From the NCBI GenBank assembly GCA_000004985.1, contig GG738852.1: 64,000 bases of DNA. The stretch is one strand, 5' to 3'. Below, in pieces: positions 19,200 to 40,576 of this stretch. The notes below the pieces were generated by a model. That model was not told the origin of the DNA. It saw only the letters and a program-made list of their open reading frames with translations, and did no database searches. Origin of the DNA: Naegleria gruberi. Lineage: Eukaryota. Each line of letters opens with the position of its first letter. Position 1 is the stretch's first letter. The translations under genes and the position numbers were made by a program.

Positions 19200-19484
19200 A
19201 ATTCTGCATTTTTGAAACACTATAATGATTTAGTTGATGAGAATGAAAGAATTAAGAAAGAATTGGCTAGATATAAACAGGCAGTCAGAAATATGAATGA
19301 AATGATTAATCAAATGGTGAGCTGTTTAGATGAGTATCAAGATGTCTTTGCATTGGGAGACTCTATTGTGCATCATGATGATAAAACCATTGTGCTCACC
19401 CATAAAGAGAGAGCAAAGATTTGTGAATTAGGTGAGAAAACCTCTCAAATCATGCATGTTTGCTCTACCTACTTTGACGGTTAA
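19200..19484 (+). CDS. 3' end of a protein-coding gene truncated by the gap; hypothetical protein
   Basis: Reading frame open from the first real base to TAA at 19482-19484. The track ORF 19212..19484 begins at a TTG, not ATG. No recognisable domain. Confidence 0.4.
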   Translation, partial: NSAFLKHYNDLVDENERIKKELARYKQAVRNMNEMINQMVSCLDEYQDVFALGDSIVHHDDKTIVLTHKERAKICELGEKTSQIMHVCSTYFDG

Positions 19485-22176: not shown

Positions 22177-22357
22177 TTTTTCATCAAATTGTCTTCCTCT
22201 CAATATCTACCAGATAATTAATAATACTATAGTATTATTGTTGTAAAGCTAGTAAATAGAGAATTGAAACAAATTGATCGATGAAAACTAATCAAAATAA
22301 CTTGTTCTTATTTTGAATCTATTGAACACTTGATGAAAACGTCACTCTTTGAAAAAA

Positions 22358-24216
22358 ATGAGAAAACGTGGTGATTCATCACCTACCACATCGGAATATT
22401 CTGATGTTACGAACCAACAGGAACAAATCACAACCTCATCATCACCAAGAATAGTACTCGAAGAGATTAATAATGATCACATAATTGTTGGGAATTATCA
22501 TCATCAATCTTCAAAGATATTTGCCAAAGTGGTAAAATTGGAACAATTGGTAAAACAAATTCATCAGAACAAGTATTATATTAAACGTATTAAATTTGTG
22601 AAAGATCAAAGTGAAGAAATAGTTTTAAATGAAAATGAAAAGGAACAATTTACTGATTTGTTGAACAAATTGAGAAGATTGATTCTTTCATCACCCGATC
22701 GTGAATCACTAGAAGAAAATGAAACTACTTTGGGTTGCATTAAAGATTCACTCAGGCAACACGTATGGCCTCTTCTACTTCATGATCCAGATCACTTGTG
22801 TAAGGATAAACAAACAGTATTTCACTTGACCAAGAAACTTGACAAGACTCACGAGCAGTATGAACAAGTGGAAAAGGATGTGGAGAGATCTCTTTTCAAG
22901 TTCTTAGCTCCATTCTTTGGAAGATATAACAAATCTATAGTCTATGTAAATACCTCGAATGCAAGCAGTACTAGTAATCTCTCTGGAGGAGTTTCGAAAA
23001 ATGTGGGTTCAAAAACAATGAATCTCGAACTCAATTACAAGAGAAAAAACCTTAGTCTTGTTGTCAACTCTATATTACAAACTGAAAAGAAATTAAAACA
23101 AAACGAAATTTTGGATGAGGAATCACCGGAGAAGTTGGCAGAAAAAGTTGGTCAATTATATTATTTTCAAGGCTTTCACGAGATTTGCTCAGTACTCTTA
23201 TTAACCTTCCAAGATTCTCTAGAGACAACTTTTAGATGTAGTTATAGACTTGCTATGAATCATTTTCATGATGCTATGCATTCTCTACATTTGGATGCCA
23301 TTATGAAAAAGTGTAGAATGATTATTAAAATTTTGGAAAAGGATGGGCACGACGATATTTGCCAAGTATTGAGGAAGAGTGATATGGATCAAGGACACTA
23401 TGCACTCAGTTGGATCTTGACATGGTTTGCTCATGTCATTGATCAAGACTGCCACGATAAGGAGGATGAAACAGAAACAGTAAGCACTTCCAGCAAAATT
23501 TTGAACGAAAATTGTAAGTATTTATTTTTACATCTTTAGATATATTCAAGATATTCTTTTTAATTTATTTATTTTGATATGTTTTGAAATTAATAGCAAT
23601 CATGCCAACACTTTTCATTGTGCAGACCCTGTTTGATGTCTTCCTTGCTGTTGGTAATCCAATGTTTGTAGTTTATGTAGCAGCCAGTGTTGTAATTGAA
23701 AGAAAGGAAGAATTATTAATCCTAAGAAATGGAGGATCTGTAGCAAGTGTGAGAGAAAAGTTATCTGCAGCATCTGGAGGTAGAACTGAAGTTGACTTCC
23801 CGTTCTCTGCAGACGAAGATGAGGAAAATTTGAACTATGTGGAATTTACTGTAGTATTTGGATTATTAAACAGATTCCCTAAAAATGTTACTCTGAGGTG
23901 GATTGAACGTGTCATTGGAAGGGCTCTCTCAATGTGGAAAGAGCACGACTATAGATCATTATTTGCTACAGAAATTCCAAACGATTCATTCCCATTCCCA
24001 TACATGAAAGAATGCGAACATTTAACAGAAAATTCTCCACCAGACTATTGGAGAGATGAGGAGGAGGAAAGATTGATACAGGAAGCCAAGAGGAAGGCTG
24101 CATCAAAGCATTCAGTAGTACCAGCAACTACCCTCATTGTAGGTGGTATTGCTTTGGCTATAGCAGTTTATATTTCTGCTCAATCATGGTTTTTTCAGTC
24201 GATACCCTTTAAATAG
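22358..24216 (+). CDS. TBC-domain Rab GTPase-activating protein, TBC1D20/Gyp8-like, with a C-terminal transmembrane anchor; 2 exons (about 22358-23513 and 23597-24216)
   Basis: Arg-finger motif VEKDVERSLF (IxxDxxR) and Gln-finger YYFQGFHEI (YxQ). The TBC domain continues in the downstream track ORF (MPTLFIVQTLFDVFLA...). A GTAAGT donor at about 23514 and an aatag acceptor at about 23596 join the frames (T+CA=Ser). Hydrophobic tail IVGGIALAIAVYISAQSWF. First ATG is at 22358; the track start 22349 is TTG. Confidence 0.7.
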
Positions 24217-24486: not shown

Positions 24487-26109
24487 ATGTCTAGGCCCAA
24501 TCTACTTATTGATGATAGTTCCATGATGGCAAGGGAAACCCCTGTAAGGGAATACGAAGAAGAGGAGAGGACTCTTAATATGGGCTCATCATTCATAAAA
24601 CCATCACCAGTAGTTGCTCCTCAACGATCACCAAGATTTAATGAAGACGGAACAATAATAACTGTTGGAGGAAGGAATAGAGAAAGTAATATTTCTAAAT
24701 ATCCTGATTTGCCAAATTTTGAAATGTATGAATTTGATGAAATGGAAGAAGTGTTGGAGAGAATTATTAAGGAGAATGAATTTGTGGAAGAGGAGTTGTA
24801 TATTTTCGAGGCATTTCTAAAGAAAATGTCGGAAAGGAATGGTGTTGCACAGTCACAAGACAGAGATTTAACGCTCAACTCTAGTGCTATTATTAAAAAC
24901 GAACCAGGATCACAACTAGCAACTCCAACACATAAGGATAAAGTTGAAAAACAAAAACAGCAACAACCAGGAGTGCCTGTTCTGACCTCAGAGTCCATCA
25001 GTGAAATTAGCGACAATAGAATGCAAAGAAGAAAATCCATAGATAATGCTTCAGTTTCATCATTCGATGATGGAAGTGATGACGCCAGTTCTGTGGTCAG
25101 TAGTGGAACAACAGGTACAGGTAAAAAGAAAAAGAAGAGAAGACAAGCAGTTCAAGAATATCAACTAACATACGAAAATAAGATTGAAATTGGTTTGAAA
25201 GCTATTGATATTTTAAGAAACACAATAGAAAAGGAAAATAAGATTTACGAGAAGGAAATTGAGAGCATGAGAGCAAGAGTTCAAGAAGCAGATTTAGAAA
25301 TTGAGGAGGTTGATAAGGAACATTTGGAATTCAGAAAAGAAGTAGTTGAACCAAAAGAGGCTAGAAATCCTAATGACAAGGTACAGCTTGGATCTGCATT
25401 GGCTGCTGAGAAAATTGTACAATATTTCAAAAACAAACAACAACAAAAAGATACACTCCTTCACAAACTAAAATTGAAAATATCTGAAATGAGGAAACAA
25501 GTTGCCAAGTCCAAGACTCAACTTGAAAGTCGAGAACAATCAGGTGATCAACTAACCAAGACTGATTTTGACCAGCTCAAGATTGAAAATGGTCTCATGA
25601 ATAAGAAAATTGATGAAAGAAACAAGGAACTAGTCGATTTAAAGTTGAATACTGGAGCCCTTTTACAAAAGCTGTCGGCCCTCACAGAGAAGTTAAATTT
25701 ACTGAATCAAGACTCAAAACTATTCAACAAGGATATTGAAAAGAGTAAGAATGACCTAGATGCTCTGAAAGAGGAAATTGAGTTTGTTTTAAAGGACAAG
25801 GACATTGAATCGAATAGAAACCAGAAGATGGTTGCTCAACATGAACAAGTTAAGGTCCCTGAAATACTTTCATATATTAAATTGAAAGCCGAGTTGGATA
25901 TGTATAGAAAAGAATTAGCTAATTGGCAACGAAAAGTTGAAATTCAATCAATGAATGAAAGTAATACGAGAAAGAAACTTCAAGGAATGTTCATGTCAGG
26001 AAAGCAAAGGGTTCCTTCAGCTGGATCAACAAAGAGTGAAAGCAGTCTTTCAGGAATCTTGACAACAAATAACCAACTCTCGAGCAAACAACTATTCAAG
26101 AATATGTAA
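24487..26109 (+). CDS. Coiled-coil protein (540 aa); possibly related to the CCDC113/CCDC96 DUF4201 family (weak)
   Basis: Long intronless ORF, heptad-rich throughout. The segment QLKIENGLMNKKIDERNKELVDLKLNTGALL resembles what I recall of DUF4201, from memory only. Confidence 0.55.
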   Translation: MSRPNLLIDDSSMMARETPVREYEEEERTLNMGSSFIKPSPVVAPQRSPRFNEDGTIITVGGRNRESNISKYPDLPNFEMYEFDEMEEVLERIIKENEFVEEELYIFEAFLKKMSERNGVAQSQDRDLTLNSSAIIKNEPGSQLATPTHKDKVEKQKQQQPGVPVLTSESISEISDNRMQRRKSIDNASVSSFDDGSDDASSVVSSGTTGTGKKKKKRRQAVQEYQLTYENKIEIGLKAIDILRNTIEKENKIYEKEIESMRARVQEADLEIEEVDKEHLEFRKEVVEPKEARNPNDKVQLGSALAAEKIVQYFKNKQQQKDTLLHKLKLKISEMRKQVAKSKTQLESREQSGDQLTKTDFDQLKIENGLMNKKIDERNKELVDLKLNTGALLQKLSALTEKLNLLNQDSKLFNKDIEKSKNDLDALKEEIEFVLKDKDIESNRNQKMVAQHEQVKVPEILSYIKLKAELDMYRKELANWQRKVEIQSMNESNTRKKLQGMFMSGKQRVPSAGSTKSESSLSGILTTNNQLSSKQLFKNM

Positions 26110-26149: not shown

Positions 26150-26875
26150 TTACTTCTTTCTAAGGAAGGTTGCTCCATCTCCAATAACCTGCATTGATAT
26201 GTCCCATCTTTCATCAGTGTGTAACTGTTCGTTCATTTGTCTTATAATGTCAGTACCAGGAGAATGATCATCCTTGTCCATCACTTTAGTGGACCAAATA
26301 ACATTGTCAATAACCAACAAGCCATTCTGTCTCAATAACTTGTAAGCATACTCAACATATTCAAGTTGGTTATCCTTATCAGCATCAATGTATATGAAAT
26401 CGAATAGTTGTCCTTCCTTTTCAAGTTCCTTAAGAGAATCCAATGCAGGTTGCAAACGAAGATTAATTCTATCACTAACACCAGCCTTTTCCCAGTATGG
26501 TTTTCCAATACTGGTCCACTCTTGAGAAATATCTAAAGTTACTACCTTTCCTCCAACATTTTCACTTGCTAATGCAAAGCTTAGAGCTGAATATCCTGTA
26601 AAGCAACCAATATCAAGAATATTTGAAGCTCCCATCAATTTGATGATCATTTGTAACAATTGAGTTTGTTCTGGAAAGGACAGCATATATCCAGTCAATC
26701 CAAGCTTTTCCATTGTAACTTTTCTCAATTCTTCTAATACTGACTGCTCCCTCATACCAACTTGTCTCACATAGTTCAAGATTGGTTCCTCTACCAAGTA
26801 TCTGTATTTGATTCCTCCAATGTTTAGTGTTGTGCTCATTCTTTTTGATTTGTTATTGTCTTTCCAATAAGTCAT
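26150..26875 (-). CDS. Class I SAM-dependent O-methyltransferase, caffeoyl-CoA O-methyltransferase/COMTD1-like (O-MTase family 3)
   Basis: SAM-binding motif ILDIGCFTGYSALSFA (cf. LEIGVYTGYS). Metal/substrate motif FDFIYIDADKDNQLEY (cf. DFIFVDADKDNY). 241 aa, TAA stop. Confidence 0.85.
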   Translation of the reverse strand: MTYWKDNNKSKRMSTTLNIGGIKYRYLVEEPILNYVRQVGMREQSVLEELRKVTMEKLGLTGYMLSFPEQTQLLQMIIKLMGASNILDIGCFTGYSALSFALASENVGGKVVTLDISQEWTSIGKPYWEKAGVSDRINLRLQPALDSLKELEKEGQLFDFIYIDADKDNQLEYVEYAYKLLRQNGLLVIDNVIWSTKVMDKDDHSPGTDIIRQMNEQLHTDERWDISMQVIGDGATFLRKK

Positions 26876-27427: not shown

Positions 27428-28357
27428 ATGACATCACGACAATTAAGTTTGACCTGTAGTTTTGGGTGCTACTTTATGACTACTCGTTTTGATGAGCAAC
27501 AATGTCTCGGTACATCACTGACAAACAGTGATCACTCTGATAATGGCACAGCAGTTGATAATGTGTCGGTCACTTCTTCTTGTTCTTCCTCATCGTCAAC
27601 TTCCTCGAGTAACAATGATGTTGCAAGTAGTGATAAACAACAGCAAGTGGAACCATTCTATCACAAAATTCAAGAATTGTGCTCTTCAAGCCTACTAAAG
27701 TATAATCATGGAAAATATTATTATGCATTGCAAAGTTTCAATGAGTGTTTATCTATGGTTGAGAAGGAATTATCAAAACAAGGATTAGATTTGAACCATT
27801 CTACATTGGAAACAAATCAACCACAAGACAATACCAAAGCACTATACTTTTCAAATCAACTCTTAGACAACTCGAGTAGTACATGCCTTGTTGAACATAT
27901 CAATGAGGACTTTTTTGCAAACCTTTCCGATACATCACAAAACTATTACCTCTATTTATATTATCAATTGTGTTTCCAATTAGCCAAATGTCACTTTAAG
28001 CTAGGTCAATTAAGCAAGGCTTATTTTTATTTGTATAATATCTGTTCGAGATGTGAGAATATTACAAACGATCTTGAATATTCACTTCTCTTACATGAAG
28101 TAGAGCAAATGGTACTTTTTGATAAAGTGATAGACGATAACAAAACCACCTACAGTGAAGAACTAGAGAACTACAGATCACCAAAGAGGAAAAACTCCCT
28201 ACCAACAAGTAATGTTATACAATCGAGACTCAATCCAGCTATTCCAGCAAGCCACACTATTAATCCCAAATTATATTTCCCCTTAACTTATACTCCTGAA
28301 CAACGAGACGATTGGCAGTCCACATTTATGAAATATCAAAAGAAAGTTTGTAAATAA
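27428..28357 (+). CDS. Hypothetical protein (309 aa)
   Basis: ATG-initiated ORF, Ser-rich N-terminal part, no recognised domain. Confidence 0.45.
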   Translation: MTSRQLSLTCSFGCYFMTTRFDEQQCLGTSLTNSDHSDNGTAVDNVSVTSSCSSSSSTSSSNNDVASSDKQQQVEPFYHKIQELCSSSLLKYNHGKYYYALQSFNECLSMVEKELSKQGLDLNHSTLETNQPQDNTKALYFSNQLLDNSSSTCLVEHINEDFFANLSDTSQNYYLYLYYQLCFQLAKCHFKLGQLSKAYFYLYNICSRCENITNDLEYSLLLHEVEQMVLFDKVIDDNKTTYSEELENYRSPKRKNSLPTSNVIQSRLNPAIPASHTINPKLYFPLTYTPEQRDDWQSTFMKYQKKVCK

Positions 28358-30577: not shown

Positions 30578-31481
30578 ATGGTAGGTTTTCTCATCAAGAT
30601 TTTGACAATCTAAAACAATATCTAATGCTAATGATGGTGATCATCAACATTCAATATATTGCGATAATCTAATATTAATAACAATAATACTATCATCATC
30701 ATGTTGATGTTAATATTTTTTATTTATTTCATGATGGATTTACAACAACAATAATAACAACTATTTGATGACGTGATGATTACCATAATATTACTGTGGC
30801 TAAACATTCTCTGCTATTTGTTATATTATAGACTACAACTGCTCAACCATACTACGATTGTATCCGTAAATCCCTCGAAGCTGCTTTGTGTCTTGAAAAC
30901 TTCCCATCTCAAGTCATTGAAAGACACAACAAGCCAGAAGTTGAAGTTGGGTACGTGTTAAAGAGTATTTCTAATCATTATTAACAAACCTATTCTACTC
31001 GTTATTTGACAATATATGTTGTGAAATTGTCAATTTGTGGATTAATGATGGCTCATTGTAATACACTTTGGATTTTAATGATATTCAACTAAACAGTACA
31101 AGCAGGGAATTGTTGCTCAACCCAATCATTATCAGCAAGGATAAATTTGATCGTTGCATGATTGAAGGATCAGTCAACTCTGTCAGAATCAGTCTTTCAT
31201 TCAAGAAGAACGACGATGTTGAAAGAATTATCTATAAGCGTTTTATGCACTTTTTGATGCAAAGAGCTGAACAATTCTTAGTTATGAGAAGAAAGCCAGT
31301 CGAAGGATATGATATCAGTTTCCTTGTTACCAACTTCCACATTGAAGATATGTTCAAGCAAAAGTTGATTGATTTCATTATTGGATTCATTGAAGACATT
31401 AACAAGGACATTAACAACATGAAGTTGCAATCAAGTGCTCGTGCTCGTGCTGTTGCCAAGAAGTATCTCGGAGCTTACTAA
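30578..31481 (+). CDS. ARPC4: Arp2/3 complex subunit 4 (ARPC4/Arc19); 3 exons (30578-30580 ATG only, about 30832-30950, about 31097-31481)
   Basis: Exon 3 matches ARPC4 nearly end to end ([56 protein letters not shown]). Exon 2 encodes [40 protein letters not shown], matching human MTATLRPYL...[25 protein letters not shown]|gtaggt donor; gtacgt donor for intron 2; an actaaac branch-like element before the acag acceptor. Confidence 0.85.
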
Positions 31482-31709: not shown

Positions 31710-32285
31710 ATGCCACCAAAGAAGAATAACAATCCTTCTCTCAACAAGGTCTCAAACAAGACCATTACTGTCGGAAATGTGCAAGGAGAACTTGTATTTA
31801 ATGGTGGATATCTCGGATTGAAGGGTGATCTTGTGGAAAGATGTTTGGACAATTTTCAGGATCAAATCAATGAACACTGTCCAAGCGAATATAAGAAAAA
31901 GAAGGATGACAGAGACAAGACTTCACATCATCACATTACTCTCATGTTAAAGCAAGATATCAAGAAGGCAACTGAATCTCTTAAAGATTCTTATCCATCT
32001 TTGTTACCAGCTGATATTTCTGCTGAAAATGTTACTGTTCAACACTTGTTGGATGCAATGGCAAAGGAAATTGATTTTTCAGAAATTACAGCACTAGGTG
32101 TTGGTAAACAAAAGAAGGCAGCAAATGAAACAGTATATATTGTTGTGGAATGGCCAAGCGCTTCTCACTTTTTGAAAAATGTTAATGCTGACACTAGAGA
32201 TTTCCATATAACTTTAGGATTTAAGGATACAGATATTCATGGAGTTGCAAAAAATAGAATGACATTAGTAAAAAAATCAGAATAA
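31710..32285 (+). CDS. Putative 2H phosphoesterase-superfamily protein (two H-phi-T-phi motifs); hypothetical
   Basis: 191-aa ORF. SHHHITLM near residue 75 and FHITLGF near residue 165, spacing typical of 2H/CPDase-like enzymes. Inference only. Confidence 0.4.
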   Translation: MPPKKNNNPSLNKVSNKTITVGNVQGELVFNGGYLGLKGDLVERCLDNFQDQINEHCPSEYKKKKDDRDKTSHHHITLMLKQDIKKATESLKDSYPSLLPADISAENVTVQHLLDAMAKEIDFSEITALGVGKQKKAANETVYIVVEWPSASHFLKNVNADTRDFHITLGFKDTDIHGVAKNRMTLVKKSE

Positions 32286-32286
32286 T

Positions 32287-34026
32287 TTAATATTGAGGAG
32301 CATAGGTGTTTGATTTTTGCATTTGACTTGGTCTTGAATTGTCGTCATCGTGTCTCTTTCGTTTGTTCTTATCATTTGATCGTGAACCAGAGTGTTTGGA
32401 AGTTTGAGTATTTGGTAATCTCCATTCTTGTAAACATTGATCTCTAATCTTGTTTTGCTTTTCTTGTATTTCCAAATATTTATCTTCAACAGCATTCTTA
32501 ATTCTTTGGAGTGAATTGATTTGAGATTTGGCAATCACAGTATTTGTATCACTCAAATACTTGTTAAACATTTCATCCTTCTCAATGACATTGCAATCGA
32601 CCAATGATTTGATATTTTCACGGTTGGATAATCTAATATTAACGTCAAACAGATAATTTACAATTTGTGGTTGACGTTTTCTTAATCCCTTACAAATGAC
32701 GTATCTTTCAGAGTTGGCAGGTCTAGATGAGAGTGGCTTTACAATCATTACTTTTTCATAATTTTGGTAAAGAATGTACATGAGAGAGGCAGAGAACCAA
32801 GTATTCAAGTCAAACAATTTACAAACAAAAGAACCACCTCTTCTAGTAATCATCAATCCTGTCAAAATTTGACATAATACCAATTGATGAGTGAGGTATT
32901 CTTGAGAATTTTCAACACCATGAACAGAGAAACCACCATCTGCAGTTACAAGAGCAACACCTCTTCCATTAGTTCCTTGGTCAATAGCCTTACTTAGAGC
33001 ACGAATATTTTCATTCTTAGTTATATCACCTGTTCCATCTTCACCATAGTTGACTTCAAAATTGTCATGAGGTGATTCTGGATTGAATCTATTTAATTTC
33101 CAGTCATCTTTCTTATTTTTCAAAGTAAATCCCCAACCCTTAGCTTTATCTGTCTTGAATCTATAATAGAGGTATTCTGTAAAACCTCCAGGTCCAGCAC
33201 AAATATCTGCAAAATAGAGAATACCATTTTCTTCAGGTAATCTGACAAGAGTTGTCAAGTCAGAAATTCTATCAATATTTGCCAATTTAATGGCAGCTCT
33301 ATTTTGGAAAATAGATCTACCAATTCTTTCATATGGATTCGATCTATATCTAGCATCAGTAAATATTTTTTCATCTACAGAATCGAATTGTGATTTCAAA
33401 TCAAAAATTTGTTGAACTTGTTGAACATTAACAAACGGAGATAAATTTCCTTCAACATATTTTTGTCCATTATTATTCATTGAAGCTGATAAATCCAATG
33501 TTGTATTATCAGGTCTTACAATGGAAAACTCTGGTGCATTTTCACTTAATGGTTCAATACAAGTCATCCACGATACATCTTCCTTGTATGGATAATCTGT
33601 CATATCAGGGTCATGTGTTTGAATAGTAAAATGTTCAGGAAGATTTGATGAATAATGAGCAGAAGTATTTGATCCTAAACCTGCTCTTCCTTGTTGTTGT
33701 TGTAATTCAATAGCACTTGCACTTCCTTGATTATTCTTTCCTAAACCTTCTCCAACTTTAAAACCCATCTTTTCCATCATCATCAATACTTTTTGTGAAG
33801 CATTCTTCTTGACCATACTAGTAAATGGATTAGAAATGTGTGATTTTGCAGAAACACGTTCAAAATCAGGATCGTTAGAAAATATATCATGATGATAATT
33901 AGATTCTTCTCCGGAATTATCATACATGGAATTATCTTCTTCTTGATGATCATCATCGTCCTCATCATTGTCGACAAGAGGATTAGAACGTGATGGTGCA
34001 TACATTGATTGCATTGGATCAAACAT
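32287..34026 (-). CDS. Cap-specific mRNA (nucleoside-2'-O-)-methyltransferase, CMTR1-like: G-patch plus RrmJ/FtsJ-type methyltransferase, lacking guanylyltransferase-like and WW domains
   Basis: G-patch MEKMGFKVGEGLGKNNQGSASAIELQQQQGRAGLG. SAM motif FADICAGPGGFTEYL. K-D-K-E tetrad candidates RAAIKLANID / ALVTADGGFSV / VCKLFD / SERYVICKG. Acidic poly-D N-terminus. 579 aa. Confidence 0.75.
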   Translation of the reverse strand: MFDPMQSMYAPSRSNPLVDNDEDDDDHQEEDNSMYDNSGEESNYHHDIFSNDPDFERVSAKSHISNPFTSMVKKNASQKVLMMMEKMGFKVGEGLGKNNQGSASAIELQQQQGRAGLGSNTSAHYSSNLPEHFTIQTHDPDMTDYPYKEDVSWMTCIEPLSENAPEFSIVRPDNTTLDLSASMNNNGQKYVEGNLSPFVNVQQVQQIFDLKSQFDSVDEKIFTDARYRSNPYERIGRSIFQNRAAIKLANIDRISDLTTLVRLPEENGILYFADICAGPGGFTEYLYYRFKTDKAKGWGFTLKNKKDDWKLNRFNPESPHDNFEVNYGEDGTGDITKNENIRALSKAIDQGTNGRGVALVTADGGFSVHGVENSQEYLTHQLVLCQILTGLMITRRGGSFVCKLFDLNTWFSASLMYILYQNYEKVMIVKPLSSRPANSERYVICKGLRKRQPQIVNYLFDVNIRLSNRENIKSLVDCNVIEKDEMFNKYLSDTNTVIAKSQINSLQRIKNAVEDKYLEIQEKQNKIRDQCLQEWRLPNTQTSKHSGSRSNDKNKRKRHDDDNSRPSQMQKSNTYAPQY

Positions 34027-34383: not shown

Positions 34384-35814
34384 ATGAGTGAATTGACGAA
34401 ACTCTTTGAGGATGAGAACTTGAAGAAGAACATTTCATCCCTCCTTTTCTTTATGAGTGAAGTCGAGAAGATAGTAGAAAATCCCACTAGTTATGACCTT
34501 CATATCGCTCTGTATATGGGTGTTGAAAAATTGAAAGATTTTCGATTAAGAACCAAACAGTATAAATTCTGGAAATTCGAGAATGTTATTCCTTTGGATG
34601 TCTATACTGTTACTTCGAAGGAGTGTATTTTAGATGCAAAGCTAACTAAGAATGTTATTTGTACAGAATTGATGGAAGAAGAAAGTGAGAAAGCCAGGGC
34701 TGAGCTCTTGCAAAATGAAGACAGCAAGCAAAAGAACTCGGGCAAAAATAAGAAGAATTCACTTACTAGCAAGGAAAGGAAGAAAACAAGTTCAACAGAC
34801 AACTCAAAGTTAGCTACTCCAGAAAGAAGAGAAGATGTCTCAAAGGAATCAAGGTCTAACTCCAAAGAGAAAAAGGAAAAAGAGTGTTCGAAACCAAATG
34901 TCTCAACAACAATTGTTCCAGTGAGAGAGAATGAAAGTATTCCCAAAACCGACAGTGTTAGAAAGGAAATAACAGGGTCTTTACATACCAATGAACAAGA
35001 AGGTAATCCTTTACCTCTTGCTACAACTTCCATTGATACTCAACTAATATTAAAAGTCATGAATAGAAGATTTGATGCTATTGAAGGAGAATTTGGTGCC
35101 TTCAAAACTGGGTTTGATGAATTAGAAAAAAGATTTGGTGCTTTAGAAGAAAGATTTGGTGTTTTAGAAGAAAGATTTGATGTATTAGAAGAAAGATTTG
35201 ATGTATTAGAAGAAAAATTTGATGTATTAGAAAAAAGATTTGATACAATGGAAAATAGAATCTCTTCTGCAATTGGTATGCTTTATGAAATGAGTTTAGA
35301 GCAGATGTTAAAAGATGAAGGCTTTGAGGTCGAATGCAACGTTGTTTATGACGAGAAAAAATTTGGCCCTCAATTTGACAAGTTAAAGAAAGCCAAGACT
35401 TTAAAAAATACCTGGAATAATTGTTTGCGCAATTTAGAACAACAAAAGAGAATTTCTACAACTCAAAGGTATTCCCTTTCTTTCTACTCTCCATCAATTG
35501 AGTTTAACTTTATTGTTAGAGATAATGAAAGAGTTACAACCCTAGTTGTTGAGGCATCCACTAACAACTTGACAGGAAATGCTCTTATTGTTAAGATGCT
35601 CCAATTGGAACGACAAGTAAGATTCTTCCAGGCTTGTAATTGTAATAATTTAGATTACGTAGCATTTATATCCCCAAGCTTGTTTACTAACACAAATGCT
35701 GAAATGTCAAAACTAATAACTGAGTTTCCAGGAGTATTTGAGAATTTAAAAAACTACAAAGCAAAAGGCAGGCTGTTCTTCAACAGAAAAGGAGCAAGGC
35801 TAAAAATTGAATAA
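34384..35814 (+). CDS. Hypothetical protein with seven tandem EERFDVL heptads; its last ~17 codons lie inside a dispersed ~165-bp repeat
   Basis: 476-aa ORF. K/S/E-rich middle, tandem ERFGALEERFGVLEERFDVLEERFDVLEEKFDVLEKRFDT, C-terminal FFNRKGARLKIE*. Confidence 0.55.
   Translation: MSELTKLFEDENLKKNISSLLFFMSEVEKIVENPTSYDLHIALYMGVEKLKDFRLRTKQYKFWKFENVIPLDVYTVTSKECILDAKLTKNVICTELMEEESEKARAELLQNEDSKQKNSGKNKKNSLTSKERKKTSSTDNSKLATPERREDVSKESRSNSKEKKEKECSKPNVSTTIVPVRENESIPKTDSVRKEITGSLHTNEQEGNPLPLATTSIDTQLILKVMNRRFDAIEGEFGAFKTGFDELEKRFGALEERFGVLEERFDVLEERFDVLEEKFDVLEKRFDTMENRISSAIGMLYEMSLEQMLKDEGFEVECNVVYDEKKFGPQFDKLKKAKTLKNTWNNCLRNLEQQKRISTTQRYSLSFYSPSIEFNFIVRDNERVTTLVVEASTNNLTGNALIVKMLQLERQVRFFQACNCNNLDYVAFISPSLFTNTNAEMSKLITEFPGVFENLKNYKAKGRLFFNRKGARLKIE
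35095..35250 (+). repeat. Tandem 21-bp coding repeat (ttagaagaaagatttgatgta x about 7)
   Basis: Direct reading of the DNA, mirrored in the heptad protein repeat. Confidence 0.8.
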
Positions 35815-36003: not shown

Positions 36004-37245
36004 TTAATATTGTGCATCTTGGTTTTGAACATTTATGGGCTTAGTATTAAATTCTAACAATTGCTTATTTACAACCAAGAGTGTCTTCTCTACAAGTTCT
36101 CTTAATTCTTTAATTTCAAGTTCTACTATTTGCTTTGCGTCATTGAGATATGCTAGAGAGGCTTCATACTGATTTGAGGTGAAGAACAAGGATCTATTAT
36201 TTCTCACTGTATGAATAATTGCATAGCAATATAAATAAATGAACTTTGCACACCTTGTCGTGTGGCAACTAATCTCTAAATTACTACCATTTTTCAAACA
36301 ATCAACATGAATTCCATGAAAATACCCAGTTTTTTCCTTACTCAACAAACTCTCAGAAATGTTACTATACTGATCATCTCCAGGAAGCGATAGTATTTCT
36401 CCTTCCTCAACAAATCTAACCATACTTCCAGAAAGGCCAACTGTTGCACAGCCATGTTGCTGTTTTCCTGTATTCGAGAGAGTTGTTTCTCCAAAAGAGG
36501 CTATCATTTCACTATGACCAGACAATACACCTTGGAGCTTACTAGACACTTCACTGATTACAGCTTCCTTCTCATCTTCAATCAATACAACTTCTCCATT
36601 TTCCATAATTCTTTTGACAACACTTTCAGTAACAAACAAGTCCATGACACAAGAAGGTACACCTCCAATTACAGCACAATTATATGGACATGTTGCAAGT
36701 TTCTTTGGCAACTTGGGCACAACAATGTTTCCTACCAATTCAGGAGGCACACAAACCAGTGCTAAATCAACCTGCGAATACTCCTTATTTAAATCTCTTG
36801 TTTCACGAGTGAGTATTTGCCTAGACCTGAACAAACCAGTTTGAAAGTCAACTTTTTGTGCTCTTCCAACAATATGATCAGCTGATAAACCAAAGCAAGT
36901 AGTGATAAAGTTAACATTTCCTTCTAAATCTCCAGCTATTCGAGCAGTTGTTCCAATATAGGCTGTAAAATCAAAGCTAGACTTTACATGTACAAGTGTA
37001 TTATCATTTCTATTCTCAAGCATAATAGGTGTTCGGGAAACTGTTGAAACTCTGGGAAGCAGAAGAGTAAGATTTTCTTCCCACGAAGGAGGTTTGCTAG
37101 ATACCAAACCAGAGTCATCCACTAGGATTGATAGTCTTGAGAGCTTGGATACCTTTGGAACTATTGGAGTCTCTGATTTGAATTTAACAAGAATACCTTC
37201 TTTTGTTCTTGTAGCCTTTCTTGGGGGTTTTTTGAGTGAGGTCAT
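36004..37245 (-). CDS. Hypothetical protein (413 aa), family not recognised; sits between the two repeat copies
   Basis: ATG-initiated ORF, TAA stop. Weak ASKHA-like DxG (ILVDDSGLV) and an ENG tripeptide (IMENGEVV). No confident assignment. Confidence 0.5.
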   Translation of the reverse strand: MTSLKKPPRKATRTKEGILVKFKSETPIVPKVSKLSRLSILVDDSGLVSSKPPSWEENLTLLLPRVSTVSRTPIMLENRNDNTLVHVKSSFDFTAYIGTTARIAGDLEGNVNFITTCFGLSADHIVGRAQKVDFQTGLFRSRQILTRETRDLNKEYSQVDLALVCVPPELVGNIVVPKLPKKLATCPYNCAVIGGVPSCVMDLFVTESVVKRIMENGEVVLIEDEKEAVISEVSSKLQGVLSGHSEMIASFGETTLSNTGKQQHGCATVGLSGSMVRFVEEGEILSLPGDDQYSNISESLLSKEKTGYFHGIHVDCLKNGSNLEISCHTTRCAKFIYLYCYAIIHTVRNNRSLFFTSNQYEASLAYLNDAKQIVELEIKELRELVEKTLLVVNKQLLEFNTKPINVQNQDAQY

Positions 37246-37319: not shown

Positions 37320-37495
37320 AAAAACAAAACACAAGTTGTTCTTCAATAGAAAAGGAACAATATCAAAAATTGAATAAGATTAATTTAGATTTAATTTAGT
37401 TTGTTTTTTTGGTAAATTGGGAAGGAGATTGGATTAAGGAATGATCAAAATTATACAATAAACTTAGAATTTCTTATGCTTTTTAACAAATGGTT
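37320..37495 (+). repeat. Copy 2 of the ~165-175 bp direct repeat; contains the true last 10 codons and stop of the DEAD-box gene plus a relic of the + gene C-terminus (LFFNRKGTISKIE*)
   Basis: Alignment by eye against 35760-35935. Both coding relics stay in frame. Confidence 0.8.
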
Positions 37496-39437
37496 TGCTT
37501 TCACCACCATTGTTATCATTATTCCATGACGATGATCCACCATTGTTATTATCATTATTCCAGTTATTATTGTAACCACCACGGCCACCACCTCTACCAC
37601 CACGACCTCCTCTGAAGCCACCTCTTCCGCCTCTTCCACCTCTACCACCACGACCTCCTCTAAAGTCATCCTTTTCAGTATTGGCATCTAAGAATTCCAT
37701 CAAGCCTCTCTTCTTTGGATTGGCATCTTCAGTGGATTCTTCTTGATTCGATTCTTCTGCTTGTGGAGTTTCTTCTTCCTTATTAAATCTGTTGAATTTC
37801 TTATCGTTATTGAATGATGGTTTGTTGTCATTGTACTTGTCAAAGTTCTTCTTGAAACCACCTCCATTATTATTATTTTGGAAGCCACCTCTGCTCTTCA
37901 AACCAAATGATGATTTCAAACCTTCTTCATCAAAATCATTCATCTTGAAACCCAACTTTCTAGCAAACATATTGAAAACACTACCATAAGTATTAACAAG
38001 TTTGAAAGCATCTCTATTCAATTGATTATTTTGGACAATTGAACAAACTTCTCTTTGAATTTCATCCAATTCTCTATCAGTAACCTTATTATCAAGTTCA
38101 CCAAGCTTTTCCCAATCTTTTTCATCTTCCTTATCACTATTCAACATCATGTTAAAGTATTGGAGAGCAACTTCCTTTTCTCTTGGAGTCAAGAAGAGAA
38201 CTGAGAGACCCTTCTTACCAGCTCTAGCAGTTCTACCTGCTCTGTGGAAATAATCGGCAGGTTGTTCTGGAATATCAAATTGAACAATCAAATCGACATT
38301 AGGGAAATCGAGACCTCTGGCAGCAACGTTAGTAGCAACCAAAATACCAGGATTTCTATCTTCCATAAATTGGAAGAAAATTTCACTTCTCTTTTCTTGT
38401 GTCATATTTCCGCTCAATTGAACAACATTTCCAACTCCTGATGCATTTTGTAAAACAGTTGTTGCAAATTCTACTGACAATTTTGTACTGACGAAAGTAA
38501 TAATCTTCTTATCTACATTATTTCTCAAAACTGAAACGAGAGCAGCCATCTTTTTATCATTTGGAACTTCATAATATCTTTGTTCCAAAGTAGAAACTCT
38601 CTTTGAACCTCCATTATCAAGACCAAGTTTCATAATATCATTCTTTAAAGAAATATGAGCCAAATCATCAACCTTATCAGTCATTGTGGCAGAGAAGAGA
38701 TAGGTTTGACGTTGTTTTGGTAATTGCATAACAATCTTTTTCAAAGTTTCTTCAAAACCAGAATCCAACAAACGATCAGCTTCATCCAAAATAAAGAATT
38801 TAAGATGAGTGCAATCAAGACTTTCTCTTTGAATGTGATCCAAACATTTACCTGGTGAGGCAATTAAAACTCTAACAGTTGGATCAGCTAATTGAGCTTG
38901 TTCAACAGAAACCTTGTTACCTCCGATAACACAAGCAGCCTTATAATTAGTATGTTTTAACAACTTGTCAGCAACAGTTTGAATTTGCAAAGCCAATTCT
39001 CTTGTTGGAGCCAAAACCATAATATAAATACCATGAACATTCTTTTCATTTTCCATCATACAGGACAATGATGGAACCAAGAAGGCAAGAGTTTTACCTT
39101 GACCTGTAGCTGCTTGAGCAATAATATCCTTTCCCTTACCCTTTTCTCCGAGAGCATTTGGAATTGTTAAATGTTGGATAGCAGTCATGTATTCAAATCC
39201 GAACTCCTTCTTTAAAGATTTTAATAATTGTGGATGAATTCCTTCGACTTCTTCAAATTTCATTTTAGAAGCAACAGCATTACCTTCGGCATCTTCAGTG
39301 ACTGGAAGCACGATAGTTTCAACAGATTGCTTCTTTCTGAGTTGAACATTTTCAGAAGCATCAAGTGTTGAGACGTTACCACTGGCATCCTTCAATGTCT
39401 TGGTACCATTCTTGTTAAATTTGATGTGAGCAGGCAT
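37464..39437 (-). CDS. ATP-dependent DEAD-box RNA helicase with a C-terminal RGG/GAR tail
   Basis: Q motif (FEEVEGIHPQLL...TAIQ), motif I AQAATGQGKT, Ia LAPTRELALQI, II DEAD, III SAT, VI HRAGRTARAG. C-terminal GRGGRGGRGGRGGFRGGRGGRGG. Confidence 0.9.
   Translation of the reverse strand: MPAHIKFNKNGTKTLKDASGNVSTLDASENVQLRKKQSVETIVLPVTEDAEGNAVASKMKFEEVEGIHPQLLKSLKKEFGFEYMTAIQHLTIPNALGEKGKGKDIIAQAATGQGKTLAFLVPSLSCMMENEKNVHGIYIMVLAPTRELALQIQTVADKLLKHTNYKAACVIGGNKVSVEQAQLADPTVRVLIASPGKCLDHIQRESLDCTHLKFFILDEADRLLDSGFEETLKKIVMQLPKQRQTYLFSATMTDKVDDLAHISLKNDIMKLGLDNGGSKRVSTLEQRYYEVPNDKKMAALVSVLRNNVDKKIITFVSTKLSVEFATTVLQNASGVGNVVQLSGNMTQEKRSEIFFQFMEDRNPGILVATNVAARGLDFPNVDLIVQFDIPEQPADYFHRAGRTARAGKKGLSVLFLTPREKEVALQYFNMMLNSDKEDEKDWEKLGELDNKVTDRELDEIQREVCSIVQNNQLNRDAFKLVNTYGSVFNMFARKLGFKMNDFDEEGLKSSFGLKSRGGFQNNNNGGGFKKNFDKYNDNKPSFNNDKKFNRFNKEEETPQAEESNQEESTEDANPKKRGLMEFLDANTEKDDFRGGRGGRGGRGGRGGFRGGRGGRGGGRGGYNNNWNNDNNNGGSSSWNNDNNGGESKPFVKKHKKF
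37530..37680 (-). repeat. GC-rich tandem imperfect 9-nt repeat encoding the RGG tail
   Basis: ccacctctaccaccacgacctcctct... units read on the + strand. Confidence 0.6.
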
Positions 39438-39583: not shown

Positions 39584-40576
39584 TTAATATCTTCTTTTAT
39601 TGTGAGGAGGTTGATAATTACTGTTATTGTTATAATACCTCTTTTGGGCTCCTCCACTATTGTTATTAGAATAATTACGATTATTGCTAGTATTGGAATA
39701 GGAATTATTAGAATGTTCATTTGATCCCCCAACATTTCGTCTAGATTCTCTGGATTCTTCATTGGAACGTTGCTGTTTGTTTTTTCTAATGGTATTCTCA
39801 ATGTCACTCAATCCAACCAGTGAAGATGAATTATCATTGAGAACATTGAGATAAACTGCCTTTGGTCGTTTGTACATTTCCTTAATGTGTTTTTCAACAA
39901 ATTCCAATTCATCTCTTGTTGTATTGAATAAGAGCCACCAAGCAGGATTCTCAGGTAAGACTCGGGAATGTTCCTTTGCTGACATGTAAACAGCTCCACA
40001 AGCAATCACTTGAGGTTTTGCACTCAGACTTAAAACAGAACATCTCAAAGCATCATTACAATAATTCCAAGCAGTTTGTGTTAAATCCTCATGTCCTTCA
40101 AGGATGTGCATGACAAACAAAATGTATTGATGAGGCAATTCAATATTATAGAATGTAAATCCTAATTCAATGAGAATGTATCTCTCCGTTCTTATTAAAT
40201 GTGATTTTAAAAGTTCCACAATATCTGGTGAAATGTAATACAATTCCGGATAGATAATATCGATAAAAACTTGTAAAAAGTGAAAAATTGATCGGTGTGT
40301 TTCTTGAATTTTACAACTAATAAAAAGACTAGCCATAGCAACATGTCTCACACAAAATTCCTTCATTGACTTTTTCATATAAAATCGATGAAAAATTATT
40401 TGTGCATGAGAAATGGTTGTTTGAGGTAATTCCAACAATATTCCGGCATCTTGAATTAGTTGGCATGCATATAACTGCAAATTGGTTTCATCATTTTCCG
40501 AGAGTTGATCTTTCCGTGATGGAGTTTCATTTTTAATAAATTCGAGAGGGATAAGTGGTGGAGAGGTGTCTTTCAT
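39584..40576 (-). CDS. Cyclin L (transcription/splicing cyclin) with a C-terminal Arg/Ser/Asn-rich tail
   Basis: [27 protein letters not shown] vs human [55 protein letters not shown] vs [42 protein letters not shown] vs HWFLLFGATEEEIQ. Confidence 0.85.
   Translation of the reverse strand: [330 protein letters not shown]

What the first reader, a model, noticed from the sequence alone, without database searches (positions are those of the whole stretch)
32287..34026. Minimal CMTR1-like cap 2'-O-methyltransferase (G-patch plus RrmJ only) in a genome with fungal-type codon usage
The 579-aa protein joins a textbook G-patch to an RrmJ/FtsJ methyltransferase with a plausible K-D-K-E tetrad, the domain pair diagnostic of metazoan CMTR1. 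It lacks the guanylyltransferase-like and WW domains and has an acidic poly-D N-terminus. Cap1 methyltransferases are not a feature of budding or fission yeasts, so this is unexpected given the otherwise yeast-like codon and intron style. It would be a compact form of the enzyme if it is active
Basis: partly seen in the sequence, partly recalled or inferred. Interest (0 to 1): 0.5.

Follow-up and report, generated by a model that had tools for sequence, protein, structure and literature searches.

The report
Naegleria cap1 mRNA methyltransferase (short CMTR1)
This is the already catalogued Naegleria gruberi copy of CMTR1, the enzyme that 2'-O-methylates the first nucleotide after the mRNA cap; it has the short G-patch-plus-methyltransferase form already described for single-celled eukaryotes, and the genome is an amoeboflagellate's, not a fungus's, so the finding is real but ordinary.

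Summary
Window 32287..34026 (-) is an uninterrupted 579-aa ORF with a G-patch (Pfam E=7e-13) and an FtsJ/RrmJ methyltransferase domain (E=6.5e-33).

It is a CMTR1 orthologue. It matches human CMTR1 at E=6e-88, against 3e-8 for Trm7 and 8e-5 for Spb1. All 14 catalytic, m7G-pocket and triphosphate-contact positions of human CMTR1 are identical. An AlphaFold model superposes on the human catalytic domain 4N48 with TM 0.88.

The framing is wrong. The protein is 100% identical to Naegleria gruberi XP_002680908.1 (NAEGRDRAFT_46720, UniProt D2V4U8), which UniRef already names CMTR1. The genome is heterolobosean, not fungal.

The guanylyltransferase-like and WW domains are truly absent. The protein ends 41 aa after the methyltransferase domain, a convergent gene's stop codon lies 1 nt beyond its own, and N. 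fowleri and Willaertia orthologues end at the same place. This short form was described for unicellular eukaryotes by Werner et al. 2011. Trypanosome TbMTr1 and the isolated human catalytic domain show it is active.

Modest extras: a second, catalytically intact paralogue that arose before the Naegleria/Willaertia split; a conserved C-terminal KRKR motif; and a start codon 4 residues upstream of the deposited model. Interest is low.

The parts
32287..34026 (-). Complete single-exon coding sequence (579 aa plus TAA stop) of the Naegleria gruberi CMTR1 orthologue (NAEGRDRAFT_46720, paralogue A)
   Evidence: ORF listing. 100% identity to XP_002680908.1/D2V4U8 over its 575 aa. Contiguous alignment to human CMTR1 residues 55-549 with no frame breaks.
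33799..34026 (-). Disordered, acidic N-terminal region (aa 1-76), including VDNDEDDDDHQEEDN at aa 18-32. The first ATG (MFDP...) is probably the true start, 4 codons upstream of the deposited model.
   Evidence: pLDDT is 30-35 over aa 1-76. The peptide was read back. N. fowleri and Willaertia orthologues also begin MFDP, whereas the deposited N. gruberi model starts at M5.
33673..33783 (-). G-patch domain (aa 82-118), the predicted docking and activation module for a DEAH-box helicase of the Prp43/DHX15 type
   Evidence: Pfam PF01585 E=7.4e-13. The glycine pattern aligns with human CMTR1 and is conserved across homologues: G92, G96, G101, G116 and G118 are nearly invariant. The function is inferred from human CMTR1-DHX15 work (PMC6232587, PMC6071836).
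32392..33639 (-). Cap1 methyltransferase catalytic domain (aa 130-545), equivalent to the crystallised and active human fragment 126-550. It comprises the N-terminal cap-binding extension, the Rossmann-fold core and the C-terminal helical extension.
   Evidence: pLDDT is mostly above 90. Foldseek to 4N48 gives TM 0.88, 39% identity, E=1.4e-35. phmmer to 4n48_A gives E=3.6e-79. Identity to human over this region is 44%.
32686..33309 (-). FtsJ/RrmJ Rossmann core (aa 240-447). It carries SAM-binding motif I FADICAGPGGF (aa 272-282, nt 33181-33213) and the catalytic K247 (33286-33288), D363 (32938-32940), K403 (32818-32820) and E440 (32707-32709).
   Evidence: Pfam PF01728 E=6.5e-33. Residue mapping to human K239/D364/K404/E441. 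The four catalytic positions are invariant in all 36 aligned homologues. Coordinates verified.
33349..33396 (-). m7G-pocket and triphosphate-contact residues of the N-terminal extension: K211, D215 and R226 (human K203, D207, R218). They act together with E372, N373 and Q375 (nt 32902-32913) and R243, R435 and N438.
   Evidence: Roles are taken from the human crystal structure paper (PMC3941023). All are identical here and in both heterolobosean paralogues.
32290..32391 (-). Short disordered C-terminal tail (aa 546-579) that occupies the place of the animal GTase-like and WW domains. It contains a basic KNKRKR motif (aa 553-558, nt 32353-32370), a candidate nuclear localisation signal.
   Evidence: pLDDT is below 50 over aa 548-579. 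The KRKR motif is conserved in N. fowleri, Willaertia A and Willaertia B. There is no hit to the animal GTase-like/WW profile. The NLS role is an inference and was not tested.

Best explanation
The gene encodes the Naegleria gruberi orthologue of CMTR1 (hMTr1/FTSJD2), the S-adenosylmethionine-dependent enzyme that converts cap0 (m7GpppN) to cap1 (m7GpppNm) on RNA polymerase II transcripts.

Proposed mechanism:
- The N-terminal extension of the catalytic domain forms the pocket for the m7G. K211 is the floor, D215 and N373 read the base, and E372 stacks on it.
- An arginine cluster (R226, R243, R435), with Q375 and N438, holds the triphosphate bridge and the first phosphates.
- K247-D363-K403-E440 activate the 2'-OH of the first transcribed nucleotide for methyl transfer from SAM, which is bound at motif I (FADICAGPGGF).
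- The G-patch most likely recruits and activates a Prp43/DHX15-type DEAH helicase that opens structured 5' ends.
- The C-terminal KRKR motif probably provides nuclear import.

What is shown here: domain content, orthology, retention of every known functional residue, the fold, and true absence of the GTase-like/WW module.

What is inferred: catalytic activity, the helicase partner, nuclear localisation, and how the enzyme reaches nascent transcripts. It lacks the GTase-like domain that docks human CMTR1 on the Pol II stalk and the WW domain that binds Ser5-P CTD.
For: - Domains: Pfam FtsJ and G-patch.
- Sequence: human CMTR1 is the best solved relative at E=6.4e-88 over query aa 39-545. ASFV EP424R scores 4e-16, Trm7/FTSJ1 3e-8 and Spb1/FTSJ3 about 1e-4.
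- Functional residues: 14 of 14 positions from the human structure (PMC3941023) are identical. Ten are invariant and four vary in only a few sequences across 36 homologues; all 14 are kept in both Naegleria/Willaertia paralogues.
- Fold: the AlphaFold model has pLDDT above 90 over aa 130-545 and superposes on 4N48 with TM 0.88.
- Named homologues: the hits from animals, a dictyostelid and a cryptophyte that carry a functional name are nearly all called CMTR1; a few nematode entries and one JGI entry are labelled RrmJ/RlmE-type. The exact protein is named CMTR1 by UniRef.
- Activity of the short form: the trypanosome orthologue without the GTase-like domain has cap1 activity (PMC3113572). Human fragment 126-550 is active in vitro (PMC3941023).
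- G-patch role: it binds DHX15 in the human enzyme (PMC6232587, PMC6071836).
Against: - No biochemical or cap-composition data exist for Naegleria. No paper in the searched library mentions Naegleria together with CMTR1.
- In human CMTR1, deleting the GTase-like domain impairs activity, and that domain anchors the enzyme to the Pol II stalk (PMC11139899). Co-transcriptional recruitment must therefore work differently here, or methylation may be less tightly coupled to transcription.
- A second intact paralogue exists. Which of the two is the main mRNA cap1 enzyme is unknown.
- No CMTR2 sequence was available for a direct comparison. That discrimination rests on architecture, CMTR1-specific pocket residues and the much weaker match to ASFV EP424R, which Werner et al. 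place on the hMTr2 side.
Confidence: 0.9

Rival explanations
1. One of the two heterolobosean paralogues has shifted specificity. The window gene (A) might act on a subset of RNAs such as snRNAs, or on the second nucleotide (cap2-like), while paralogue B is the general mRNA cap1 enzyme, or the reverse.
For: There are two paralogues at 54% identity in N. gruberi and two in Willaertia. The duplication predates the genus split: the A clade and the A+B clade each have 100% bootstrap support. Long retention of both copies suggests non-redundant roles. The tails differ: A has a 41-aa KRKR tail and B about 105 aa of R/D/N/Y-rich low complexity. Werner et al. 2011 note that cap methyltransferases changed specificity during evolution.
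Against: All 14 cap- and RNA-contact and catalytic positions are identical in A and B, so nothing in the known active site points to a different target nucleotide. Werner et al. also report lineage-specific hMTr1 duplications in mosquitoes and infer no new function from them.
Confidence: 0.2
2. It is an rRNA/tRNA 2'-O-methyltransferase of the Trm7/Spb1/RlmE type that happens to carry a G-patch, not a cap enzyme.
For: The Pfam family FtsJ is shared with those enzymes. NCBIfam gives weak hits to rrmJ/RlmE at 23.8 and 16.3 bits. A few nematode homologues are auto-labelled 'ribosomal RNA large subunit methyltransferase J'.
Against: The NCBIfam hits are far below their cut-offs of 300 and 269 bits. 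PDB E-values are 80 orders of magnitude weaker than for CMTR1. Fold matches to FTSJ1, Trm7 and Spb1 cover only the Rossmann core of about 210-290 aligned columns, with query TM about 0.3. The CMTR1-specific m7G pocket and arginine cluster are intact.
Confidence: 0.01
3. The short form is an artefact: a truncated gene model, or a decaying gene whose C-terminal GTase-like/WW exons lie elsewhere or were recently lost.
For: Animal CMTR1 carries about 290-320 further residues. Other genes in the window appear to have introns; the ARPC4 ORF, for example, starts at Pfam profile position 41.
Against: The stop codon is followed 1 nt later by the stop of a convergent 2H phosphoesterase gene. No reading frame of the window matches the animal C-terminal profile. 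N. fowleri and Willaertia orthologues end at the same place with a conserved KRKR tail. N. fowleri has the same convergent neighbour. Protein identity of 79% and 72% across these species, with all functional sites kept, argues for purifying selection.
Confidence: 0.01
4. The gene was acquired from a giant virus or another foreign source rather than inherited vertically.
For: Werner et al. 2011 describe the cap methyltransferase family as horizontally mobile, with transfers between eukaryotes and viruses. Independently, from general knowledge, amoebae host giant viruses.
Against: The protein sits in a heterolobosean clade with two paralogues in two genera, and that clade sits among other eukaryotic sequences. 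GC content is 0.33, like the surrounding window. The G-patch plus methyltransferase architecture is the cellular one. The nearest viral structure, ASFV EP424R, is far more distant.
Confidence: 0.02

Closest known systems
Human CMTR1 (hMTr1/FTSJD2; PDB 4N48, 8P4E)
   Same: It has a G-patch followed by an RrmJ-type catalytic domain with the same N-terminal cap-binding extension and C-terminal helical extension. Identity is 42% over 479 aligned residues. All 14 catalytic, cap and triphosphate contact residues are identical. Fold TM is 0.88.
   Different: It lacks the GTase-like domain, which docks on the Pol II stalk RPB4/7, and the WW domain, which binds Ser5-P CTD; in their place is a 41-aa tail. 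The basic NLS-like motif is C-terminal (KNKRKR, aa 553-558), whereas the human NLS is reported with the N-terminal domains. The N-terminus is strongly acidic and disordered.
Trypanosoma brucei TbMTr1 (kinetoplastid cap1 methyltransferase)
   Same: It belongs to the hMTr1 branch of Werner et al. 2011, lacks the GTase-like domain and has experimentally shown cap1 activity (PMC3113572). By established taxonomy (not tested here) kinetoplastids and Heterolobosea are both placed in Discoba. It is the best functional precedent for a short CMTR1.
   Different: From general knowledge, not tested here, TbMTr1 is about 370 aa and has no G-patch, whereas the Naegleria protein keeps one.
Short CMTR1 homologues of other non-animal eukaryotes (Tieghemostelium P0020, Guillardia P0072, Funneliformis P0028, environmental protist sequences)
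   Same: They have the same MTase-only or G-patch-plus-MTase architecture, with no match to the animal GTase-like/WW profile, and the same catalytic tetrad. Identity is 33-50%.
   Different: Many carry long low-complexity C-terminal tails of 100-370 aa. The Naegleria A-type protein has one of the shortest tails. Some diverge at m7G-pocket positions, for example Guillardia at R218, E373 and N374.
N. gruberi paralogue B (NAEGRDRAFT_65760, XP_002679002.1)
   Same: It has the same architecture and all 14 functional positions. It forms a clade with the window protein at 100% bootstrap support.
   Different: It is only 54% identical, has an R/D/N/Y-rich tail of about 105 aa in place of the KRKR tail, and lies on a different scaffold.
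ASFV EP424R / CMTR2 branch and Trm7/FTSJ1, Spb1/FTSJ3, RlmE
   Same: They share the RrmJ-type Rossmann fold and the K-D-K-E chemistry of 2'-O-ribose methylation.
   Different: They are far more distant: E=4e-16 (EP424R), 3e-8 (Trm7) and 8e-5 (Spb1), against 6e-88 for CMTR1. Per Werner et al. 2011, CMTR2 has two RFM domains and no G-patch. The rRNA/tRNA enzymes lack the cap-binding extension, matching only the core with query TM about 0.3.

Membership tests
CMTR1 (cap-specific mRNA nucleoside-2'-O-methyltransferase 1, hMTr1 orthologues) | RrmJ/FtsJ-type Rossmann-fold methyltransferase domain | tested here: met
   Pfam PF01728 E=6.5e-33, 114.6 bits against a cut-off of 24.1. The predicted fold matches 4N48 with TM 0.88.
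CMTR1 (cap-specific mRNA nucleoside-2'-O-methyltransferase 1, hMTr1 orthologues) | Catalytic K-D-K-E tetrad (human K239, D364, K404, E441) and SAM-binding motif I | tested here: met
   K247, D363, K403 and E440 align to the human residues and are invariant in 36 homologues. Motif I is FADICAGPGGF against human FADVCAGPGGF.
CMTR1 (cap-specific mRNA nucleoside-2'-O-methyltransferase 1, hMTr1 orthologues) | CMTR1-type m7G pocket and arginine cluster (human K203, D207, E373, N374; R218, R235, R436; Q376, N439; N234) | tested here: met
   All are identical: K211, D215, E372, N373, R226, R243, R435, Q375, N438 and N242. Their roles come from PMC3941023.
CMTR1 (cap-specific mRNA nucleoside-2'-O-methyltransferase 1, hMTr1 orthologues) | Closer to CMTR1 than to any other RrmJ-family enzyme (CMTR2 branch, Trm7, Spb1, RlmE, viral cap methyltransferases) | tested here: met
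   PDB sequence search gives CMTR1 6e-88, EP424R 4e-16, Trm7 3e-8 and Spb1 8e-5. The fold ranking is the same. Hits that carry a functional name are nearly all called CMTR1. Caveat: no cellular CMTR2, TbMTr1-3 or VP39 sequences were available for a joint tree.
CMTR1 (cap-specific mRNA nucleoside-2'-O-methyltransferase 1, hMTr1 orthologues) | G-patch domain N-terminal to the methyltransferase domain | tested here: met
   Pfam PF01585 E=7.4e-13 at aa 82-118. It aligns with the human G-patch.
CMTR1 (cap-specific mRNA nucleoside-2'-O-methyltransferase 1, hMTr1 orthologues) | Cap1 methyltransferase activity on m7GpppN-RNA | not testable with these tools
   This needs an enzyme assay or cap analysis. 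The precedents are TbMTr1 and human fragment 126-550, both active without the C-terminal module.
Animal-type full-length CMTR1 architecture (NLS, G-patch, RFM, GTase-like, WW) | Non-catalytic guanylyltransferase-like domain C-terminal to the methyltransferase domain | tested here: not met
   A profile of 13 animal C-terminal modules hits 92 of 115 homologue tails but not this protein, its heterolobosean relatives, or any frame of the window. The tail is 41 aa. The convergent gene's stop lies 1 nt after this gene's stop.
Animal-type full-length CMTR1 architecture (NLS, G-patch, RFM, GTase-like, WW) | C-terminal WW domain that binds Ser5-phosphorylated Pol II CTD | tested here: not met
   There is no PF00397 hit at E<=1, whereas the bird orthologue P0039 gives WW at E=3e-5. 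There is no room for it in the 41-aa tail.
Animal-type full-length CMTR1 architecture (NLS, G-patch, RFM, GTase-like, WW) | Nuclear localisation signal | tested here: inconclusive
   There is no N-terminal basic cluster; the N-terminus is acidic. A conserved C-terminal KNKRKR/KRKR motif is a candidate NLS, but no predictor or experiment was applied.
Trm7/Spb1/RlmE rRNA-tRNA 2'-O-methyltransferases | Scores at or above the family thresholds, and the whole domain matches | tested here: not met
   NCBIfam rrmJ gives 23.8 bits against a cut-off of 300, and RlmE gives 16.3 against 269. Only the Rossmann core aligns structurally.

The most novel reading that the evidence does not exclude
Heterolobosea may run a more elaborate cap-methylation system than a plain cap1. 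Naegleria and Willaertia have kept two catalytically intact CMTR1 paralogues since before the genera split. Werner et al. 2011 separately place an N. gruberi protein in the TbMTr2 (cap2) branch. If the paralogues act on different nucleotides or RNA classes, multiply ribose-methylated caps would predate the kinetoplastid cap4 within Discoba. In addition, these short enzymes must reach nascent RNA without the Pol II stalk- and CTD-binding domains used in animals. That points to an undescribed recruitment route, for example through the G-patch/DEAH helicase or the conserved C-terminal tail.
Probability: 0.15. Interest if true: 0.45.

Novelty: already known. Interest (0 to 1): 0.12.

Why it matters
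It matters little beyond correct bookkeeping. The gene is a public, automatically named CMTR1 orthologue, and its short architecture is the form already described for unicellular eukaryotes.

Its modest value is comparative. It shows a discoban (heterolobosean) CMTR1 that keeps the G-patch and a completely human-like cap pocket while lacking the Pol II-docking modules. That supports the view that G-patch plus methyltransferase is the older core and the GTase-like/WW module a later addition.

The retained duplicate, together with the published TbMTr2-like gene, makes Naegleria a reasonable organism in which to ask when multi-methylated caps arose in the lineage leading to trypanosomes.

Tried and rejected
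- An exact-sequence look-up of the 579-aa ORF product found nothing. The deposited model starts at Met5; the 575-aa form was then found by homology and by exact look-up.
- A look-up of the paralogue's genomic context failed because it is not on record.
- The first Biopython bootstrap tree timed out. It was redone with vectorised Kimura distances.
- One literature query was rejected for syntax. 'Naegleria' plus 'CMTR1' returned no paper.
- I considered whether the convergent 2H phosphoesterase (2H-SAK) forms a functional unit with the cap enzyme. The pairing is conserved in N. fowleri but not in Willaertia, so I treat it as local synteny.
- I considered the nearby DEAD-box helicase as a G-patch partner and rejected it. 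G-patch cofactors act on DEAH-box helicases such as DHX15, and this neighbour is a DEAD-box protein.
Full report
**1. Observation**

The reported ORF is real and sits at the stated coordinates. Window 32287..34026 on the minus strand encodes 579 aa, from ATG to TAA. In-frame stops lie upstream of the ATG.

Pfam finds an FtsJ/RrmJ methyltransferase domain at aa 240-447 (E=6.5e-33, 114.6 bits against a gathering score of 24.1). It finds a G-patch at aa 82-118 (E=7.4e-13, 48.6 bits against 22). The acidic run VDNDEDDDDHQEEDN is at aa 18-32. None of this can be explained by chance.

**2. Source organism**

The first 19,199 bases of the window are N, so real sequence starts at 19200. The GC fraction of the real sequence is 0.31-0.38.

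The best database hit is 100% identical over its 575 aa. It is 'predicted protein [Naegleria gruberi]': EFC48164.1, XP_002680908.1, NAEGRDRAFT_46720, UniProt D2V4U8, on a 938,756-bp scaffold. UniRef already names it 'Cap-specific mRNA (nucleoside-2'-O-)-methyltransferase 1'. The next hits are Naegleria fowleri (79%) and Willaertia magna (72%).

The genome is therefore that of a heterolobosean amoeboflagellate, not a fungus. This removes the reason the finding was considered surprising.

**3. Orthology with CMTR1**

*Sequence.* Against all PDB chains, human CMTR1 matches at E=6.4e-88 over query residues 39-545 (human 55-549). That span covers the G-patch, the linker, the catalytic domain and its C-terminal helices in one uninterrupted alignment. 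The ASFV enzyme EP424R scores 4e-16, Trm7/FTSJ1 about 3e-8 and Spb1/FTSJ3 about 1e-4. NCBIfam rrmJ/RlmE models score 24 and 16 bits against cut-offs of 300 and 269.

*Functional residues.* I took the functional residues of human CMTR1 from the crystal-structure paper (PMC3941023):
- m7G pocket: K203, D207, E373, N374
- triphosphate contacts and arginine cluster: R218, R235, R436, Q376, and position 439
- 2'-OH of nucleotide 2: N234
- active site: K239, D364, K404, and E441 as the fourth member of the K-D-K-E tetrad (the paper names the first three)

Mapped through the alignment, all 14 are identical in the window protein: K211, D215, E372, N373, R226, R243, R435, Q375, N438, N242, K247, D363, K403, E440. 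Position 439 is written 'D439' in the paper's text but is Asn in the deposited human chain and Asn here. Motif I reads FADICAGPGGF against human FADVCAGPGGF.

*Fold.* An AlphaFold2 model built on a 36-sequence alignment has pLDDT mostly above 90 over aa 130-545. The N-terminus (aa 1-76) and C-terminus (aa 548-579) are disordered. Foldseek against the PDB ranks human CMTR1 first: 4N48 at TM 0.88, 39% identity, E about 1e-35. EP424R follows at TM about 0.70. The rRNA/tRNA enzymes align only on the Rossmann core of about 210-290 aligned columns.

Neither is met.

**4. The missing C-terminal module**

The protein ends 41 residues after the conserved '...CLQEWRLP' helix that closes the catalytic domain. 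Animal CMTR1 continues for about 290-320 residues.

I built a profile from 13 animal C-terminal regions (GTase-like plus WW). It recognises 92 of 115 homologue tails. It finds nothing in this protein, in its heterolobosean relatives, or in any of the six frames of the window. A tblastn with a vertebrate tail gives only noise at E=7.

There is also no room for further exons. The stop codon at 32287-32289 is separated by a single base from the stop (32283-32285) of a convergent gene. N. fowleri and Willaertia orthologues end at the same place, and N. fowleri has the same convergent neighbour. The short form is therefore genuine and under selection.

**5. The short form is already known**

Werner et al. 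[quoted passage not shown] The isolated human catalytic fragment 126-550 is also active in vitro (PMC3941023).

In my own survey the animal C-terminal module is also missing from these homologues:
- Tieghemostelium, a dictyostelid
- Guillardia, a cryptophyte
- Funneliformis, a glomeromycete; the deposited entry is marked partial and stops 3 residues after the catalytic domain, so it says little about a tail
- many unnamed environmental sequences, even those with long low-complexity tails

Apart from the named animals, the module appears only in two unnamed sequences (P0016, P0024) that branch next to them. G-patch plus methyltransferase is thus the general eukaryotic form, and the GTase-like/WW module looks like a later addition.

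Funneliformis also shows that some early-diverging fungi have an apparently intact CMTR1-like catalytic domain.

**6. Mechanism**

Shown here: the domain set, the fold and the retention of every residue known to bind cap0 RNA and to catalyse methyl transfer.

Inferred: the enzyme binds m7GpppN-RNA in the CMTR1 manner and transfers a methyl group from SAM to the 2'-OH of nucleotide 1.

In human cells the G-patch binds the DEAH helicase DHX15, which helps with structured 5' ends (PMC6232587, PMC6071836). The Naegleria G-patch keeps the consensus glycines, so a Prp43/DHX15-type partner is the likeliest reading.

Human CMTR1 is anchored to the Pol II stalk (RPB4/7) by the GTase-like domain and binds Ser5-P CTD through the WW domain (PMC11139899). 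Both are absent here, so recruitment must use another route or be looser. This is the one open mechanistic question.

A basic KNKRKR motif at aa 553-558 is conserved in N. fowleri and in both Willaertia paralogues. It is a plausible NLS, placed at the opposite end of the protein from the human NLS.

**7. Extras specific to this lineage**

N. gruberi has a second paralogue, NAEGRDRAFT_65760 (XP_002679002.1), at 54% identity and on another scaffold. Willaertia also has two.

In a neighbour-joining tree (339 columns, 200 bootstraps), the A-type proteins form a clade at 100% support: the window protein, N. fowleri and Willaertia A. The A and B types together form a heterolobosean clade, also at 100%. 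The duplication therefore predates the Naegleria/Willaertia split.

Both paralogues retain all 14 functional positions. Werner et al. mention N. gruberi only in the TbMTr2 (cap2) branch. Naegleria may therefore have at least three cap ribose methyltransferases. Whether that means caps beyond cap1 is untested.

A small annotation point: the orthologues in N. fowleri and Willaertia begin MFDP..., like the full ORF. The deposited N. gruberi model starts at Met5, so the first ATG at 34026 is probably the true start.

**8. Verdict**

The 'fungal genome, therefore unexpected' framing is wrong.

Both the gene and its architecture are already known: the gene through database annotation, the architecture through published description of the short form in protists. 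It is a well-preserved, ordinary housekeeping gene, so interest is low.

The only reading with some novelty is that the retained duplicate, together with the TbMTr2-like gene, reflects a richer cap-methylation system in Heterolobosea. I rate that at roughly 15%.

Noticed in passing
window 31710-32285 (+): The convergent neighbour encodes a 191-aa stand-alone 2H phosphoesterase of the 'Swiss Army Knife' RNA-repair type (Pfam 2H-SAK PF22547, E=3.4e-19). It has two HxT motifs (HHHITL, FHITLG). Its TAA stop is separated by one base from the TAA stop of the CMTR1 gene, so the 3' UTRs must overlap. The pairing is conserved in N. fowleri (57-bp gap) but not in Willaertia.
   Followed up: partly
window 1-19199: The first 19,199 bases of the window are N and real sequence starts at 19200. 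The window appears to be padded at, or to overlap, a scaffold end or gap.
   Followed up: yes
window 34015-34026 (-): The deposited N. gruberi protein model (575 aa) starts at the second Met (MQSMYAP...). The ORF's first ATG gives MFDPMQSM..., and N. fowleri and Willaertia orthologues also start MFDP. The public gene model is probably 4 codons short.
   Followed up: yes
window 37464-39437 (-); L003 1048-3063: A 657-aa DEAD-box helicase (DEAD plus Helicase_C) lies about 3.4 kb upstream of the CMTR1 gene. Willaertia also has a 641-aa DEAD-box helicase about 3 kb upstream of its CMTR1 orthologue, on the other strand relative to it. This looks like residual microsynteny. It is not the DEAH type that G-patches activate.
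   Followed up: partly
window 34384-35814 (+): A 476-aa ORF divergent from the CMTR1 gene has a Lys/Ser-rich middle and a run of near-perfect 7-residue repeats (FGALEER FGVLEER FDVLEER FDVLEEK FDVLEKR). Pfam gives only a sub-threshold coiled-coil hit (DUF7310). Its function is unknown.
   Followed up: no
window 31068-31481 (+): This is an ARP2/3 complex subunit ARPC4 (PF05856, E=2.7e-56). The ORF matches the profile only from position 41 of 167, so the N-terminal ~40 residues are probably on an upstream exon and the gene likely contains an intron.
   Followed up: no
window 24487-26109 (+) and 26150-26875 (-): There is a CCDC113/CCDC96-type coiled-coil protein (E=8e-38); from general knowledge this is a ciliary family, which would fit Naegleria's flagellate stage. 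Next to it is a 241-aa class I O-methyltransferase of the catechol/caffeoyl-CoA type (Methyltransf_3, E=3.5e-56).
   Followed up: no
window 39584-40576 (-), 42746-44857 (-), 22349-23539 (+): Other recognisable genes in the window are a cyclin with a cyclin-T2-like C-terminal domain, an ARMH3-family armadillo-like protein and a RabGAP-TBC protein. Several long ORFs have no Pfam match (19676-20695, 20785-22203, 27428-28357, 36004-37245, 46715-48076).
   Followed up: no
P0005 / P0013 / P0121 (paralogue B; not in the window): The deposited N. gruberi paralogue B model starts inside the G-patch (MGYKEGEGLGK...). A related environmental sequence (P0013) carries a full G-patch preceded by a long N-terminal region, and a 631-aa cluster member (P0121) exists. 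The public paralogue B model is therefore probably truncated at its 5' end.
   Followed up: partly
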